Origin: a virus
Virus record (IMG/VR): IMGVR_UViG_3300044692_000050
Coordinates: 38,341 to 102,340 of that record
Length of the DNA stretch: 64,000 nucleotides
Reading direction: 5' to 3' (one strand)
Shown: positions 54,816-63,384 of the stretch, piece by piece
Position numbering within the stretch: the stretch's first letter is position 1
How the letters are laid out: each line of letters opens with the position of its first letter
The notes under the pieces: generated by a model
Database searches by the model: none
Seen by the model: the letters and a program-made list of their open reading frames with translations, nothing else
What the model was told of the DNA's origin: nothing
Made by a program: the position numbers and the translations under genes

Positions 54816-56129
54816 CTACTCTCCATCCCGAAGGGCAGAGATCCCGGACGTCACCGTCCAGGGTTCCTGTTTCGCCGGCAACTGCGTCCGGGTTGCCCCG
54901 GCCCGTCTTACATCGCCTCCGCAGGCAGTAACCGCCAGCCCGGCGGCCAGGATGTTCTTCGCGGCGTTGACGTCCCGGTCATGCCGGGTGCCGCAACCGG
55001 GGCACGTCCAGTGGCGCGTCCCGAGGCTCAGTGAGGCGAGCAGGTGCCCGCACGCGGAGCAGGTCTTGGAAGACGGATACCAGCGATCTATGGCGACGAC
55101 TGTCCGGCCATAGCGCTGAGCCTTGTATTCGAGCATGGACCGGAACTCAGCCCATCCGGTACAAGAGATAGCGCGGGCCACTTTCCGGTTGCGGACCATG
55201 CCGGATACATTCAGGTCTTCGATGGCGATCACGTCGAACCGGCGAACGAGATCTGTGCTGGCTTTGTTTAGATAGTCGCGCCGGGCGTCGGCGACCTGCG
55301 CGTGAGCCCGCGCGACCTTGACCTTGGCTTTCCGCCGGTTGGCCGAGCCTTTCCGGCAACGCGCGAGCCTGCGCTGATAGCGCTTGAGTCGCTGCTGGTG
55401 ACGCTCCCAGTCCTTTGGGTGGGCGATTTTTTCGCCGGTTGACAGGACTGCGAGATCTTTCAGGCCGACGTCCACGCCGACGCTCTCGCCGGTTCCGGGC
55501 AGTGGCTCGGCATCGGCCTCGTCCACCTGGAAGGTCACGAACCAGCGTCCGGCCGCATCGCGAGCAATGGTTACTGTCGTCGGATTCAGCGTGGCTATGT
55601 CGATCTCAAGCCACGTCCACACGAATCGCAGTGGCGCAGTCGCCTTTGCGAGCCAGAGTGCGCCAGACTTCATCCGGAAACCCGCTCGGCTGTAAGTCGC
55701 GGACTGACGGGAGTGCCTGGACTTGAAGCGGGGATAGCGGGAGCGTCCCACAAAGAACGCCTCAAATGCCTTGTGCTGGTGCCGCAACGTCTGCTGGAGA
55801 GGAACCGCGGCGACCTCATTAAGAAACGCCATCTCCGGCTCACGCTTCATGGCGGTCAGCGCGATGTCGGTCGCGGCGTACGACATGCGTTTGCCCTCGG
55901 CCTGATAACGAGCGTGCTGTGCGGCGAGGGTCCGGTTCCAGACCACGCGGACGCAGCCGAACGTGCGGGACAGCATCTGCTGCTGCACCTCGTCGGGATA
56001 TGCCCGGCACCGGTATGCCGACCTCACCTTTACAGGATACCAGTCATGACTGTAAGGAGAGTTGCCATGCTCCGCGCGGCATCAGATTCCCCGACCTTCA
56101 GGCCGGGTCTTTCTCCGGGGGGCTAAGGC
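54812..56129 (-). mobile_element. Non-autonomous IS200/IS605-family (tnpB-only) element
   Basis: Right end ...GGAGAGTAGTCAA (TCAA ends at 54812); left-end AAAG plus hairpin near 56088-56113; candidate TAM TTAT at 56130-56133. Confidence 0.8.
54816..56027 (-). CDS. tnpB: RNA-guided endonuclease TnpB
   Basis: RTFGCVRVVWN; RuvC D (GVDVG), E (IEDL), D (DRDVNAA); Zn finger CSACG...CPGCG. Confidence 0.95.
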   Translation of the reverse strand: MRSAYRCRAYPDEVQQQMLSRTFGCVRVVWNRTLAAQHARYQAEGKRMSYAATDIALTAMKREPEMAFLNEVAAVPLQQTLRHQHKAFEAFFVGRSRYPRFKSRHSRQSATYSRAGFRMKSGALWLAKATAPLRFVWTWLEIDIATLNPTTVTIARDAAGRWFVTFQVDEADAEPLPGTGESVGVDVGLKDLAVLSTGEKIAHPKDWERHQQRLKRYQRRLARCRKGSANRRKAKVKVARAHAQVADARRDYLNKASTDLVRRFDVIAIEDLNVSGMVRNRKVARAISCTGWAEFRSMLEYKAQRYGRTVVAIDRWYPSSKTCSACGHLLASLSLGTRHWTCPGCGTRHDRDVNAAKNILAAGLAVTACGGDVRRAGATRTQLPAKQEPWTVTSGISALRDGE

Positions 56130-60099: not shown

Positions 60100-60441
60100 A
60101 TGTGCCGCTTTCCCTGGTGCCGTCCCATCCGGTCGGCACTCCGCCAGATCAACGACAAGCTCAGCACCATCGAACAGAAAGAGGACTCCATCATGTCCGG
60201 TCTCGACGACCTGAACACCGCCGTCGCCGCCCTGCAGCAGAACGTCTCCGCGCTGCAGACCGAGCAGGCCCAGTTCATCGTGGACATCCAGCAGGCTCTC
60301 GCGGCCAACGCCGGCGACTCGGACGCCGCGGTCGAGGCGGTCGCCCAGCTGGTGGCCACCCAGGCGCAGAACGTGGCGTCGCTGACCTCGGAGCAGCAGG
60401 CCGCCGACCCGGCGCAGCCTCCCGCGCCCCCGGCCGCTTAG
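60100..60441 (+). CDS. Coiled-coil hypothetical protein
   Basis: GGAGG SD; MSGLDDLNTAVAAL internal segment. Confidence 0.6.
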   Translation: MCRFPWCRPIRSALRQINDKLSTIEQKEDSIMSGLDDLNTAVAALQQNVSALQTEQAQFIVDIQQALAANAGDSDAAVEAVAQLVATQAQNVASLTSEQQAADPAQPPAPPAA

Positions 60442-60494
60442 CTTCCCCGTCTCCCGGCCTGCCGCTGCCCCCGTTCGGCGGGCCAGGGACCACT

Positions 60495-60538
60495 GAGGGC
60501 CGGCTGCTTCCCTGTGCGGGAGGCGGTCGGCCCTCTTT
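60495..60538. terminator. Terminator hairpin between convergent operons
   Basis: GAGGGCCGG...TCGGCCCTC-TTT long stem. Confidence 0.65.
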
Positions 60539-60556
60539 GGCGTGCACGGGGGAGCG

Positions 60557-62200
60557 TCAGGCGGCAGCCCAAGGCCACGCGCCGTCACGTCCCGACTCAA
60601 GGGCCGGGATCATGCGGAACGCGTGGTCGGTCAGCCCTCCGAACGTGTGCCGGTTGCTGCTACCGGACGGCAGCGCGCCGTGCTTGTACCCGCCGATGTT
60701 CCACACGTACACGGGCACCGAGCGCGGGATCAGGTCATCGATCCGGGTCGGGGGCATGGCGTCGCCGAACTGGCGGTAGACGTTTGACGGCAGCATGCTC
60801 GGCTCGCTCTGCTCGTCGGTGACGATGACCACCCGCGAGTGATCCGGACGCAGGTACTCGCGGACGGCGCGGGGAATGTCCGTCCCGGTCCCCACGGGAC
60901 CGTTGTAGTCGTCGCCGACGTGGAACCGCTCGATCACCTTGAGCACGGACTCACTCTTGCCGAACGTCACGACCGCGCCCCTGCTCGCGAACTCCACGAG
61001 ATCGGCCCGCTCGGCACGCGAGGCCACCGCCGCGCCGAAGACAGCCGCAGCGTCGGCCCACAGCATCTCTGACTTGCCGCTCATCTTCGCATGCCACATC
61101 GACAGGGAACGGTCCACCAGGATCAGCGTACGGCCCTTCAGTGCGGGCACGTTGGCCAGCGACAGGTTCAGCGCCCGCTCCAGCGGATACGACCACCGCA
61201 GTGACGGTGCGGCGCGGTAGGCGGCGAGGAACCGGAACGGGAACTGTCGCGACTTCGCCACCTGCTCCGGGTCGGTCAGCCGGGCGATGATGTCTCCCGC
61301 CACCTCGTCCGGCACGCCAGCGTCGTCGAAGTTGCGGAGGTTCCGCAGCTGGGCCATGAAGCCCATCGACGGGATCAGCGCGGCCCACAGATCGGCCTTG
61401 CTGACCTTGTTCCCGGCCAGCGACAGGGCGTCCTCCCACGTCATGCCCGCGACCTTGAGCGCCGCGGCGTCGAGCAGGGCGGCGGGGTCCTCGGCGGCCC
61501 GCTTGCGGAGCGCGATGTTCGCCCGGACCATGGCCAGTTCCTCCGGGACGGGGTTGTCCCGGCCGTGGCGCCGGTCGATCGCATGCTCGTACAGCGCGCC
61601 CTTCCAGGTGCCCTTGACTTCCGGGTGCTCTCCGGTGACGTGGACGCGCTCGATCACGTCGCCGAAGCGGTAGCCGTGCGAGTCCGTGTCGTACCGCAGC
61701 AGGGCGAACTCGGTGTAGAGGCGGACGATCGCGTCGGCTATGCCCCGCTTCAGCGGCTTAGGCTCGTTCCGGCCGTACAGGGAATGCCAGTAGGCGAGCA
61801 GTTCGCCGGGCTCGTCGGCGCGCTGGAGGGCAGCGGAGACGAGACGGCGGCCGCCGGGCAGGCCGACGTCAAGCCGGGCCTTCAGTGCCTCAGCGGCGGC
61901 CACGAGGGATGCCGTGCGCATGTTCGCGTCGTTCCGCAGCCACGGGATGAAGCCGTCCATCCACGCCGGGTCCTCGACGGCCACCTTGCGGACGAGATCG
62001 GCGAACCGGGTGTCCCGCTGCTTGCCGGTCTCATAGAACGACCCGTCGCCCATGTGTGAGACGGCGAGCAGGAACAGTTCACCCTGCGGCGAGCGAGTGT
62101 AGCCTGGCGCACCCTCGTAGGTCAGGCCGGACGGGATGGCCTCGGAGACGACCGGGCTGCGCGTGACGGTCCGGGCGGCCGGGGTGTTGAAGCGGGACAT
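60557..62200 (-). CDS. rsr: Ro60/TROVE-domain RNA-binding protein (Rsr)
   Basis: TYEGAPGY..ELFLLAV, RADEPGELLAYW, MGFMAQLRNLRNFD, SRQFPFRFLAAY, vWA MIDAS LVDRSLSM...IVTDEQ. Confidence 0.95.
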   Translation of the reverse strand: MSRFNTPAARTVTRSPVVSEAIPSGLTYEGAPGYTRSPQGELFLLAVSHMGDGSFYETGKQRDTRFADLVRKVAVEDPAWMDGFIPWLRNDANMRTASLVAAAEALKARLDVGLPGGRRLVSAALQRADEPGELLAYWHSLYGRNEPKPLKRGIADAIVRLYTEFALLRYDTDSHGYRFGDVIERVHVTGEHPEVKGTWKGALYEHAIDRRHGRDNPVPEELAMVRANIALRKRAAEDPAALLDAAALKVAGMTWEDALSLAGNKVSKADLWAALIPSMGFMAQLRNLRNFDDAGVPDEVAGDIIARLTDPEQVAKSRQFPFRFLAAYRAAPSLRWSYPLERALNLSLANVPALKGRTLILVDRSLSMWHAKMSGKSEMLWADAAAVFGAAVASRAERADLVEFASRGAVVTFGKSESVLKVIERFHVGDDYNGPVGTGTDIPRAVREYLRPDHSRVVIVTDEQSEPSMLPSNVYRQFGDAMPPTRIDDLIPRSVPVYVWNIGGYKHGALPSGSSNRHTFGGLTDHAFRMIPALESGRDGAWPWAAA

Positions 62201-62249
62201 GCAAAAGGCTCCTCTCGCACTGTGGCGGAAGGAGCCCTTGCCCAGTCGC

Positions 62250-62358
62250 GCCCGAGATCAAGTCGGCGAAGGTACAGACCTGGGCCCACCCATCGGCGGA
62301 ATCGAACCGCCATGGCCTCGTTAGCAGCGAGGAAGTAACCCGCACCTGCGCACCGGGC
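62250..62358 (-). ncRNA. Y RNA 3 (anticodon-arm plus T-arm variant)
   Basis: CCCGGUGCGCAGG...UACUUC 5' strand and GAUCUCGGG 3' strand; CCUCG-CUGCUAA-CGAGG then GGCGG-UUCGAUU-CCGCC. Confidence 0.8.
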
Positions 62359-62377
62359 ACGCCTTATGACGTGCGCT

Positions 62378-62517
62378 CCTCCCGAGATCAAGGTCGGCAA
62401 CGGCCCTTTTGACTGATGCTCTGCCATTGAGCTACCGGACGGCTATGCCGACCGGGCGGGACTCGAACCCGCAACACCCAGTTCCGATGAAGTATCCGTC
62501 GCCTGCGCACCGGGAGG
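62378..62517 (-). ncRNA. yrlA: Y RNA 2, YrlA-type tRNA mimic
   Basis: Same terminal stem; T arm GCGGG-UUCGAGU-CCCGC, closed acceptor-like stem, D arm UAGCUCAAUGGCAGAGC in permuted order. Confidence 0.88.
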
Positions 62518-62538
62518 TGCGAAGCATTCAGTTGTAAT

Positions 62539-62615
62539 CCTCCCCGAGATCGAGTCGGTCGCGGTACGGATCGCATCCCAAATGTGAAGTAGCCGCAGCC
62601 TGCGCACCGGGGAGG
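62539..62615 (-). ncRNA. Y RNA 1 (minimal, no tRNA-like domain)
   Basis: CCCCGGUGCGCAGGCUGCGGCUACUUC...CCGACUCGAUCUCGGGG. Confidence 0.75.
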
Positions 62616-62664
62616 GTGACGCGTTGTGGGTCACGGTACAAGATCCCCGCTTCCCATTGCCATC

Positions 62665-62692
62665 AGTTTACACGCCGACATGGTGTTGTCAA
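62665..62692 (-). promoter_or_regulatory. Promoter of the Y RNA-rsr operon
   Basis: TTGACA-16 nt-TAAACT on the minus strand; GTGTT-N4-AACAC inverted repeat over the -35. Confidence 0.7.
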
Positions 62693-62716
62693 ACACTGTC
62701 CGCTACACTAGTGGAC

Positions 62717-62920
62717 ATGAATGCCGCAAGACGGACTCCCTTTGTGTCCGTGAACCTCACGCCCGAAGCGCGGGACGACCTAAGGCGTGCCGTCCTGGAG
62801 TTGACAACGCCAGTCGGCCGACGCCTCTCGATGTCCGCCGTGCTCATCGGGTCGGTACGCGTCGCCATGCAGCATCGAGACGAGCTGGTCTCCGAACTGG
62901 CAGCCGGGCGTCCTTCGTGA
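62717..62920 (+). CDS. Ribbon-helix-helix-like small regulator
   Basis: FVSVNLTPEARDDLRR...RRLSMSAVL; TACACT-N7-ATG. Confidence 0.6.
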   Translation: MNAARRTPFVSVNLTPEARDDLRRAVLELTTPVGRRLSMSAVLIGSVRVAMQHRDELVSELAAGRPS

Positions 62921-63384
62921 CGACCCCTGTGCGGTACGGCGAGCACGTCAACGCCGAACTGGGCGCACCCTGCCAACTCTGCGACGAACCTAGCTTTCCG
63001 CCGAGAACGGACCACTGCCACGCGCACGGGTGGGTGCGCGGCGTCCTCTGCTCCCGATGCAACACCCTCATGGCGTTTATCGATCGCCGGGCGGCACTCA
63101 GGGAAGAGACCGTCGCCGAACCGCTCACGCTTGCCGCCCTCGTCGCGCATGCCGGCCGCTGCCCTGACTGTGAACCACTCACCGTTGCCGACCTCGGGCC
63201 GACGCGTGGACTGGCGACCAGGATTCCGCTGAAGACGGTCACCTTCTCGCCACGCGTCGACCCGCCGCTGAAAGCTCGCCTTGTCAGGTATGCCGGCGAC
63301 CGCGGACTTAACCTCAACGCAGCGGTGATCACGCTGCTCGACCAGGCCCTAGCGGCAGTGGAAGCGCGCGACAAAGAGGACTAG
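62917..63384 (+). CDS. Endonuclease VII-domain protein with C-terminal Arc-like RHH
   Basis: CQLC...DHCHAHGWVRGVLCSRCN; FSPRVDPPLKARL..YAGDRGLNLNAAVITLLDQAL. Confidence 0.7.
   Translation: MTTPVRYGEHVNAELGAPCQLCDEPSFPPRTDHCHAHGWVRGVLCSRCNTLMAFIDRRAALREETVAEPLTLAALVAHAGRCPDCEPLTVADLGPTRGLATRIPLKTVTFSPRVDPPLKARLVRYAGDRGLNLNAAVITLLDQALAAVEARDKED

What the first reader, a model, noticed from the sequence alone, without database searches (positions are those of the whole stretch)
62295..62332. Y RNA displaying a canonical tRNA-Ser(GCU) anticodon arm: candidate decoy for anticodon nucleases
Seen: on the minus strand, 5-bp stem CCUCG/CGAGG with 7-nt loop CU-GCU-AA, a 4-nt linker, then a perfect T arm GGCGG-UUCGAUU-CCGCC. 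This is the anticodon arm plus T arm of a tRNA grafted onto a Ro-binding stem, with no D arm or CCA. Established: classical YrlA mimics D/T/acceptor arms and lacks an anticodon loop; host defence and TA nucleases (PrrC, RloC, VapC, PARIS) cut tRNA anticodon loops. Inference: a Ro60-stabilised decoy or sponge that counters tRNA-cleaving anti-phage defences. I do not know of this Y RNA class being described.
Basis: partly seen in the sequence, partly recalled or inferred. Interest (0 to 1): 0.9.

Follow-up and report, generated by a model that had tools for sequence, protein, structure and literature searches.

The report
Y RNA carrying an anticodon-arm mimic
A phage Ro60 operon encodes a small partner RNA that displays a faithful copy of a tRNA anticodon arm; the same design turns up in over half of the related actinobacterial and phage loci examined, often mislabelled as a tRNA gene, and its purpose is untested.

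Summary
On the minus strand at 62332-62295 lie a 5-bp stem, the 7-nt loop CUGCUAA, a 4-nt linker and a perfect T arm. They sit inside the third of three Y-RNA modules upstream of a phage Ro60 gene.

The feature is not a one-off. Among 185 non-redundant Ro60-linked modules, 74 have a 5-bp stem with exactly a 7-nt loop placed 4-5 nt before the T arm (4.6 expected by chance). The loop keeps Y32, U33, R37 and A38 at about 90% each, while the triplet varies (32 kinds). G37 occurs almost only after G36, as in real tRNAs.

The hairpin corresponds to the "V" stem-loop that Chen et al. (2014) called less conserved. I found no paper that reads it as an anticodon mimic. GenBank annotates three such modules as tRNAs.

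The Ser-specific reading is not supported. The triplet drifts at about the synonymous rate of Ro60, close relatives carry GAU or GUU, and no tRNA-Ser identity feature is present. The decoy idea remains untested.

This window's module is a rare trimmed form without a D arm. The scan has noted other Y-RNA designs on other DNA, but not this one.

The parts
62665..62692 (-). Promoter-like site TTGACA-16-TAAACT in front of the Y-RNA array and Ro60
   Evidence: This is the only sigma-70-like match in 60300-63000, at 10 of 12 positions; shuffles give 0.2. The same hexamers appear in relatives L004, L039 and L050.
62539..62615 (-). Y-RNA module 1: shared stem with a short insert and no T arm
   Evidence: Fold energy is -35.1 kcal/mol, z -2.05. 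It shares the CCCGGUGCGCAGG / GAUCUCGGG frame and the YUAC-UU motif.
62375..62520 (-). Y-RNA module 2: classical YrlA-type mimic with T arm, closed acceptor-like stem-loop and D arm. Its V region is the GGAAC type, not anticodon-like.
   Evidence: Rfam YrlA RF02553 matches 62502-62394 over the full model at 45.6 bits, E 9.4e-09, below the gathering score of 69. Fold.
62247..62361 (-). Y-RNA module 3 (the finding): shared stem, UUACUU, anticodon-arm mimic, 4-nt linker, T arm, small hairpin, then the stem's 3' strand
   Evidence: Consensus structure of four homologues has 32 pairs, 4 of them with compensatory changes. Fold.
62316..62332 (-). Anticodon-arm mimic: 5-bp stem CCUCG/CGAGG with loop CUGCUAA (triplet GCU at 62325-62323)
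   Evidence: The design recurs in 74 of 185 modules with a conserved loop frame.
62312..62315 (-). 4-nt linker CCAU in the position of a class I variable loop
   Evidence: Homologous modules have 4-5 nt here, mostly UGGUY or AGGUY.
62295..62311 (-). T arm GGCGG-UUCGAUU-CCGCC
   Evidence: one compensatory pair, G-C to A-U, in L017.
62277..62291 (-). Small hairpin after the T arm, in place of the acceptor-like stem-loop and D arm of full YrlA
   Evidence: RNAalifold pairs columns 70-85; one pair changes on both sides. This is weakly supported, from 4 sequences only.
62207..62236 (-). Hairpin GGCUCCU...AGGAGCC that encloses the Shine-Dalgarno sequence of Ro60
   Evidence: Read directly from the sequence. 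The same stem with a variable loop is present in L002-L004, L017, L039-L044 and L050.
60557..62200 (-). Ro60 (TROVE domain) gene, 547 aa
   Evidence: Pfam TROVE E 5e-19. Relatives are annotated 'Ro-like RNA binding protein' in Streptomyces and Gordonia phages.

Best explanation
Module 3 is one of three Y RNAs made from a single promoter together with the phage's Ro60 protein. It is a trimmed member of the actinobacterial/actinophage YrlA lineage. In that lineage the hairpin between the conserved YUAC-UU motif and the T arm is a copy of a tRNA anticodon stem-loop, followed by a class I variable loop and a T arm (tRNA positions 27-65). The published literature calls this hairpin the 'V' stem-loop. 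In module 3 the D arm and the acceptor-like stem-loop have been lost, so only the anticodon-arm mimic and the T arm remain on the shared stem. That stem is inferred, not shown, to be the Ro60 handle. My best guess at function is that the Ro60-held RNA offers a generic, tRNA-faithful anticodon loop as bait for proteins that recognise anticodon loops. The likeliest clients are tRNA-directed nucleases, or else anticodon-loop modification enzymes. The RNA would either soak them up or bring them to Ro60 and its partner nucleases. The triplet itself is not the selected feature; the loop architecture is. What is shown: the structure, its conservation, its loop statistics and its linkage to Ro60. What is inferred: Ro60 binding, expression and any client protein. 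The confidence given is for the functional reading; the structural identity alone I put at about 0.9.
For: - **Structure and homologues.** The hairpins are in the sequence and fold as described. Three M3-type homologues keep them with compensatory pairs.
- **Family-wide loop length.** 74 of 185 non-redundant modules have a 5-bp stem and a 7-nt loop, against at most 8 for any other loop length and 4.6 in shuffles.
- **Check without selecting on pairing.** Of 59 modules chosen only because ACUUC lies 24 nt before the T stem, 38 form all five pairs.
- **Stem covariation.** The two inner stem pairs covary: GC/CG/UA/AU, 33 compensatory cells.
- **Loop frame.** C/U32 90%, U33 91%, R37 90%, A38 92%, with almost no information at 34-36.
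- **36/37 rule.** G37 follows G36 in 17 of 19 modules and follows a non-G36 in 2 of 55 (Fisher 1e-12). On distinct loops the counts are 13/2/2/25, p 4e-7. This is the rule of natural bacterial tRNAs (established knowledge).
- **Independent detection.** ARAGORN such modules as tRNAs.
- **Retention in reduced modules.** The anticodon arm and T arm are what is kept when the module is trimmed (window, L004, L048, L017, L038, L046). This argues that the arm matters in its own right.
- **Arrays with two such modules.** They always carry two different triplets (8 of 8).
- **Link to RNA repair.** A phage RNA ligase gene lies between the array and Ro60 in Streptomyces phage JustBecause. The Salmonella rsr-yrlBA-rtcBA operon responds to cleaved tRNAs (PMC7790460, abstract).
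- **Precedent for tRNA-targeting defences.** Phages are known to counter such defences with their own tRNAs (PMC10264068, PMC11555353).
Against: - No expression, binding or cleavage data exist for this RNA.
- The triplet diverges at 0.49 per site, against 0.52 at four-fold synonymous sites of the adjacent Ro60 gene. This fits a lack of constraint and gives no sign of an arms race.
- A bait for one specific nuclease should keep its triplet. It does not.
- The same design occurs in 14 actinobacterial genome records whose sampled neighbours are not phage-like. A phage-only counter-defence role is therefore unlikely to be the whole story.
- In four closely related Streptosporangium genomes (synonymous divergence about 0.1) the loop frame itself changes: A33, G38 and a 6-nt loop.
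- About 60% of modules lack the arm and carry other inserts, such as a GGGAAC-type loop.
Confidence: 0.35

Rival explanations
1. Structural relic. The arm was inherited from the tRNA ancestor of YrlA and is kept only because a U-turn 7-nt loop folds well and helps the RNP architecture or nuclease resistance. Nothing reads it, and the triplet is free.
For: The triplet evolves at about the synonymous rate. Chen et al. 2014 proposed that the stable tRNA fold protects Y RNAs from nucleases (PMC4201824, section 10). Many modules do without the arm. The frame shows slippage in Streptosporangium.
Against: Four loop positions stay about 90% conserved across lineages whose synonymous sites are saturated. 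The G36-G37 dependency has no obvious folding reason but matches tRNA biology. Module 3 lacks the D arm, so it cannot form the stable L-shaped fold, yet it keeps a canonical arm.
Confidence: 0.3
2. tRNA surveillance or repair adaptor. The tRNA-like end recruits tRNA-handling enzymes (RNase P, CCA-adding enzyme, RNA ligase or RtcB, modification enzymes) to Ro60. Alternatively it guides Ro60 and an exonuclease to damaged tRNAs. The arm simply completes the mimicry.
For: M. smegmatis YrlA is bound by Rsr, cut by RNase P and receives CCA. S. Typhimurium YrlA is modified by TruB and DusA (PMC4201824, sections 6 and 8). RNA ligase lies next to Ro60 in phage JustBecause. D-arm-bearing modules with the arm contain every tRNA element, permuted at positions 26/27.
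Against: Module 3 has no acceptor-like stem or D arm, so RNase P or CCA-enzyme recognition is unlikely. No RNA repair gene was found beside Ro60 in this window.
Confidence: 0.15
3. One reading: a decoy specific for tRNA-Ser(GCU)-cleaving nucleases.
For: The loop CUGCUAA is the commonest among the arms (8 of 74). It recurs in L004, L056, L062, L099, L113, L138 and Streptomyces phage Alone3.
Against: The closest M3-type relatives have UUGAUAC (L048) and CUGUUAA (L017). There are 32 different triplets in the family, diverging at about the neutral rate. No tRNA-Ser-specific feature is present: the linker is 4 nt, not a long variable arm.
Confidence: 0.07
4. A real or decaying tRNA gene that happens to lie in the array.
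For: ARAGORN calls the L004 homologue tRNA-Ser(gct). GenBank annotates equivalent modules as tRNA-Arg, tRNA-Cys and tRNA-Ser.
Against: There is no acceptor stem, no D arm and no 3' end. The 'acceptor' and 'D arm' in those calls are the Y stem. Neither ARAGORN nor Rfam tRNA scores the window copy. The flanks are the conserved Y-module frame. A 74-nt bacterial tRNA-Ser would lack its long variable arm.
Confidence: 0.03

Closest known systems
YrlA (Y RNA-like A; Rfam RF02553; Chen et al. 2014, PMC4201824; structure in Wang et al. 2018, bioRxiv 312249)
   Same: It is encoded just upstream of Ro60 on the same strand, with several Y RNAs in one precursor. It has the conserved YUAY motif, a stem-loop ('V') between that motif and the T arm, and a T arm with GUUCRANYC. 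Module 2 of this window matches the model end to end.
   Different: Module 3 has no D arm and no acceptor-like stem-loop, and gives no RF02553 hit even at E up to 10. The literature treats the V stem-loop as a poorly conserved variable arm and states that YrlA lacks an anticodon loop. Here it is a 5-bp/7-nt arm with the anticodon-loop frame, followed by a class I variable loop.
Deinococcus radiodurans Yrn1
   Same: Chen et al. 2014 (section 6) model it with a T arm and a potential 'anticodon arm' with a 5-bp stem.
   Different: That loop has 6 nt, and the arm lies between the T and D-like elements. The authors consider Yrn1 an independent lineage. No comparative support for an anticodon-loop frame was reported.
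Phage-encoded tRNAs that overcome tRNA-cleaving defences (C1 mycobacteriophage tRNAs, PMC10264068; SP15/T5 tRNA-Tyr against retron-Eco7 and tRNA-Lys against PARIS, PMC11555353)
   Same: They are phage-borne RNAs with anticodon loops, often in or beside tRNA arrays, proposed or shown to blunt anticodon nucleases.
   Different: Those are complete, decoding tRNAs that replace the cleaved host tRNA. In the SP15 case, activity needed the anticodon and the stems. Module 3 cannot be charged or decode. Any effect would have to be by titration or signalling, which has not been shown for any Y RNA.
tRNA-shaped Y RNAs with the Ro60 handle in place of the anticodon loop
   Same: They are Ro60-linked tRNA/Y-RNA chimeras in phages and bacteria.
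   Different: The wiring is opposite. There the anticodon loop is replaced by the handle. Here the handle joins at the 26/27 junction and the anticodon arm is kept.

Membership tests
YrlA (RF02553) | Encoded next to Ro60/Rsr on the same strand | tested here: met
   Module 3 ends 47 nt before the Ro60 start codon, on the same strand.
YrlA (RF02553) | Covariance-model match at or above the gathering score | tested here: not met
   Module 3 gives no hit at E up to 10. Only module 2 matches, at 45.6 bits against a gathering score of 69.
YrlA (RF02553) | Conserved T arm | tested here: met
   GGCGG-UUCGAUU-CCGCC, kept in L004, L048 and L017.
YrlA (RF02553) | Conserved D arm and closed acceptor-like stem-loop | tested here: not met
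   Only a 15-nt hairpin follows the T arm, and there is no GCUCA...GAGC element.
YrlA (RF02553) | YUAY motif followed by a 'V' stem-loop upstream of the T arm (Chen et al. 2014) | tested here: met
   UUAC at 62338-62335 is followed by the hairpin at 62332-62316. The layout matches the other 73 five-base-pair modules collected and is seen directly in the 43 aligned in A4.
Y RNA (Ro60 ligand) | Physical binding to Ro60 through the conserved stem | not testable with these tools
   All three modules share the stem CCCGGUGCGCAGG / GAUCUCGGG. Binding is inferred from this and from linkage only.
tRNA | Detected by tRNA finders | tested here: not met
   ARAGORN finds 0 genes in the window. RF00005 finds 0 in the whole 102-kb record.
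tRNA | 5-bp anticodon stem and 7-nt loop with Y32, U33, R37 | tested here: met
   CCUCG-CUGCUAA-CGAGG.
tRNA | Acceptor stem with a free 3' end, and a D arm | tested here: not met
   Both are absent. The ends of the element run into the Y stem.
tRNA-Ser (bacterial) | Long variable arm (class II) | tested here: not met
   There is a 4-nt linker, CCAU, between the anticodon stem and the T stem.
Anti-defence decoy for anticodon nucleases | Is bound or cut by, or protects against, a tRNA-cleaving defence | not testable with these tools
No RNA data set holds the locus.

The most novel reading that the evidence does not exclude
Ro60-bound Y RNAs of actinobacteria and their phages present faithful anticodon stem-loops, often several different ones per array. 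These would act as baits that sense or neutralise anticodon-directed nucleases. That would be an RNA-decoy layer of the tRNA-centred conflict between phages and hosts, and the first assigned job for the tRNA-like end of bacterial Y RNAs.
Probability: 0.2. Interest if true: 0.85.

Novelty: new variant of a known kind. Interest (0 to 1): 0.65.

Why it matters
The role of the tRNA-like domain of bacterial Y RNAs has been open since 2014. Published structures and reviews describe it as a tRNA without an anticodon loop.

Many actinobacterial and actinophage Y RNAs do carry an anticodon-arm copy. It has the conserved U-turn frame and follows the natural 36/37 rule. This narrows the candidate partners to proteins that read anticodon loops, and it gives simple handles for experiments: loop-frame mutants and triplet swaps in cultured Streptomyces and Gordonia phages.

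There is also a practical consequence. These modules are being deposited as tRNA genes, for example tRNA-Arg(tct) in Gordonia phage VanLee, tRNA-Cys in Streptomyces phage JustBecause, and a 74-nt tRNA-Ser(gct) in Streptomyces phage Alone3. That contaminates surveys of phage tRNA content.

Tried and rejected
- **Rfam and tRNA finders.** Rfam at gathering threshold found nothing in the window. ARAGORN and RF00005 found no tRNA in the window or the whole record.
- **Sequencing runs.** No RNA holder is listed for the locus; only two soil DNA runs, which may be the source. I therefore did not lay reads.
- **Literature gaps.** The supplementary alignments of Chen et al. 2014 are not held, and the 2020 Annual Review on bacterial Ro60 is not held. 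I could not check the published M. smegmatis or phage ET08 sequences, or whether the review mentions anticodon-like loops.
- **Mycobacteriophages.** A tblastn of Ro60 against the phage collection showed none among the 40 records listed (23 more were not shown).
- **Alternative pairings, both rejected.** CCACU/GGUGG with an 8-nt loop exists only in one subfamily and is broken in L098, L021, L095, L086 and L113. A GGGU/ACCU stem next to the D arm is absent in L062, L087 and L096. Both were judged by inspection.
- **Alignment register.** MAFFT alignment A2, which mixes 4- and 5-nt linkers, was out of register and was replaced by the gapless A4.
- **Diversifying selection.** The triplet is not faster than synonymous sites of Ro60.
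- **Streptosporangium.** Triplet conservation there is uninformative because those genomes are too close.
- **Neighbouring genes.** Pfam and PHROGs scans of the genes beside Ro60 in the window gave no RNA-repair or defence function. Pfam scans of flanks in genome loci could not settle whether those are prophages.

Full report
**What is in the window.** The window is the right-hand 64 kb of a 102,340-bp IMG/VR virus record judged 98% complete. It carries tail-fibre-like genes, a lysin amidase and an endonuclease VII gene, so a phage origin is reasonable. On the minus strand a 547-aa TROVE/Ro60 gene runs from 62200 to 60557. Upstream lies the only sigma-70-like promoter match in the region, TTGACA-16-TAAACT at 62692-62665. 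Between the promoter and the gene are three modules, each framed by CCCGGUGCGCAGG ... GAUCUCGGG and each carrying a YUAC-UU motif after the 5' strand.
- Module 1 (62615-62539) has a short insert.
- Module 2 (62520-62375) matches Rfam YrlA over the whole model at 45.6 bits, E 9e-9, below the gathering score of 69. It has the T arm, closed acceptor-like stem-loop and D arm.
- Module 3 (62361-62247) holds the finding.

**The observation.** Both hairpins are the minimum-energy fold. A single 38-nt sequence folding like this is not remarkable: z is -1.41, and 22 of 200 shuffles fold as well. The case therefore rests on comparison.

**Homologues of module 3.** Ro60 relatives were collected from three sources:
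- viral contigs (L002-L038);
- metagenome contigs (L039-L118);
- named actinobacterial genomes (L119-L146).

Three loci have the same D-arm-less module: L004 (loop CUGCUAA), L048 (UUGAUAC) and L017 (CUGUUAA). RNAalifold on the four gives the Y stem, the anticodon-like arm, the T arm and a small hairpin. Compensatory changes occur at two pairs of the anticodon-like stem and one pair of the T stem.

**The wider family.**
- *First sign.* ARAGORN run on all loci called a pseudo-tRNA about 80-115 nt upstream of Ro60 in many of them. Each call is the 5' part of the last Y module.
- *Layout.* The order is Y stem, UUAC-UU, a 5-bp stem with a 7-nt loop, 4-5 nt (mostly UGGUY or AGGUY), T arm, acceptor-like hairpin, D arm, and back to the Y stem. 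This is a tRNA permuted at positions 26/27. It differs from the Salmonella YrlA, which is opened in the anticodon loop.
- *Loop length.* I collected 185 non-redundant modules that have a T arm and the Y motifs. With a 5-bp stem and a 4-5-nt linker, the loop is 7 nt in 74 of them. Any other length from 3 to 11 occurs at most 8 times, and shuffled sequence gives 4.6.
- *Check without selecting on pairing.* Of 59 modules chosen only because ACUUC sits 24 nt before the T stem, 38 form all five pairs.
- *Covariation.* In a gapless alignment of 43 modules the outer three pairs use the invariant UUC of the motif. The inner two covary (GC 27, CG 8, UA 6; AU 25, CG 16), giving 33 compensatory cells. 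That alignment was selected for pairing, so only the covariation counts as evidence, not the 100% paired.
- *Spread.* Sixty-six of 113 loci have at least one such module: 13 of 21 viral, 38 of 66 metagenomic, 14 of 25 genomic, plus the window.

**The loop behaves like an anticodon loop.**
- Position 32 is C or U in 90%, 33 is U in 91%, 37 is a purine in 90% and 38 is A in 92%. Positions 34-36 carry almost no information.
- There are 42 distinct loops and 32 triplets among the 74.
- G37 follows G36 in 17 of 19 cases and follows anything else in 2 of 55 (Fisher 1e-12). On distinct loops only, the counts are 13/2/2/25 with p 4e-7.
- The two G36-A37 exceptions are ACG and GCG. In natural bacterial tRNAs G37 is likewise confined to G36 anticodons, and Arg(ACG) keeps A37 (established knowledge; E. 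coli detail from memory).
- Loops with G37 also tend to have U or A at 32. The real phage tRNAs found in the same loci likewise show U32 with G37.
- The 5-nt linker AGGUC/UGGUY is the usual class I variable loop. This favours reading the hairpin as positions 27-43 rather than as a class II variable arm, whose loops are shorter and which abuts the T stem (established knowledge).

**How fast the triplet changes.** Among 36 module pairs differing at no more than 4 of the 44 other positions, the triplet differs at 0.49 per site. The rest of the module differs at 0.07, and four-fold synonymous sites of the adjacent Ro60 genes differ at 0.52. The triplet therefore drifts at about the neutral rate while the frame is held. 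This gives no evidence for diversifying selection and none for conservation of a particular triplet. Relatives with roughly 60-90% Ro60 identity to the window carry GCU, GAU, GUU, UGU, UGG and UAU (identities). Arrays with two such modules always carry two different triplets (8 of 8).

**What is in print.**
- Chen et al. [quoted passage not shown] They equate it with the tRNA variable arm and note that a conserved YUAY begins the V loop. That is this hairpin's position.
- They mention an "anticodon arm" only for D. radiodurans Yrn1, with a 6-nt loop.
- Wang et al. 2018 (bioRxiv 312249) state that YrlA "lacks the anticodon loop".
- Of the 37 papers that contain the word YrlA, none of those that concern Y RNAs and that I read describes an anticodon-like V loop. 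A 2026 preprint on tRNA mimics does not either.
- The 2020 Annual Review is not held, so I cannot exclude a mention there.
- GenBank records annotate these modules as tRNAs: tRNA-Arg(tct) in Gordonia phage VanLee, tRNA-Cys in Streptomyces phage JustBecause, and a 74-nt tRNA-Ser(gct) in Streptomyces phage Alone3.

**Function.** Nothing here tests function directly.
- *For a read-out of the loop.* The frame is conserved across saturated divergence. The loops follow the 36/37 rule. The arm and T arm are the parts retained in the six reduced modules, which cannot form an L-shaped tRNA fold.
- *Context linking Ro60 systems to tRNA damage.* An RNA ligase gene lies beside Ro60 in phage JustBecause. 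A HicA-like toxin and its partner lie just upstream of the array in VanLee. The Salmonella rsr-yrlBA-rtcBA operon is induced by cleaved tRNAs (PMC7790460). Phages are known to fight tRNA-cleaving defences with tRNAs (PMC10264068, PMC11555353).
- *Against a phage-specific, Ser-specific decoy.* The triplet drifts. No tRNA-Ser features are present. The design also occurs in bacterial genome records with non-phage neighbours. The frame slips in Streptosporangium.
- *Ranking.* I therefore rank a generic anticodon-loop bait on a Ro60 handle first (0.35), a structural relic second (0.30), a tRNA surveillance or repair adaptor third (0.15), the Ser-specific decoy fourth (0.07), and a real or decaying tRNA last (0.03).

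**Verdict.** The structural interpretation is right. The claim that it is undescribed is half right, since the hairpin was seen but read as a variable arm. The proposed mechanism is plausible but unproven, and its Ser-specific form is unlikely. This is a new variant of a known kind, YrlA-type Y RNAs. The window's own copy is a rare trimmed form, one of 6 among the 74.

Noticed in passing
window 62207-62236 (minus strand): A 7-bp hairpin, GGCUCCU...AGGAGCC, encloses the Shine-Dalgarno sequence of Ro60, 7 nt before the ATG. The stem is conserved and the loop varies in L002-L004, L017, L039-L044 and L050. It may control Ro60 translation or mark a processing site.
   Followed up: partly
window 62521-62538, and the spacers between modules in related loci: The spacers between Y modules share a motif like ACAACUGAAU (window, L002-L004, L039-L044; a related AACUUCA-type in Streptomyces phage BRock). 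It is a candidate processing site for cutting the array into single Y RNAs.
   Followed up: no
L002:2020-2165: One module of a related 210-kb viral contig holds a D arm, an anticodon-like arm and a T arm in normal tRNA order inside a Y stem. This is a third wiring of tRNA parts on the same handle.
   Followed up: no
L147:1788-1859 (Gordonia phage VanLee), L148:378-448 (Streptomyces phage JustBecause), L150:1274-1347 (Streptomyces phage Alone3): GenBank tRNA features (tRNA-Arg(tct), tRNA-Cys, tRNA-Ser(gct)) that are in fact the 5' parts of Y-RNA modules next to Ro60. In VanLee it is the only tRNA feature listed in the 5.7-kb stretch fetched (locus tag QEH49_gt001).
   Followed up: yes
window 62539-62615 (module 1): The short insert of module 1 contains UUUGGGA, the same 7-mer as the Pro(UGG)-type loops of other modules and of real tRNA-Pro. 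Here it is closed by only 2-4 pairs. The insert is identical in L004 and L050 but not in L002.
   Followed up: no
window 54816-56027 (minus strand): An IS605 OrfB/TnpB-type gene (OrfB_IS605, Cas12f1-like TNB and HTH domains) lies inside the phage genome, about 4.5 kb downstream of Ro60.
   Followed up: no
L048:157-969: In the relative whose Ro60 is about 89% identical, roughly 800 nt of Cys-rich coding-looking sequence separates the module-3 homologue from the Ro60 start. This looks like an insertion, perhaps a homing-type gene.
   Followed up: no
whole record G000 (102,340 bp): The phage has no tRNA gene at all, yet it keeps two tRNA-like Y modules. One has the T/acceptor/D parts and the other has the anticodon/T parts.
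   Followed up: partly
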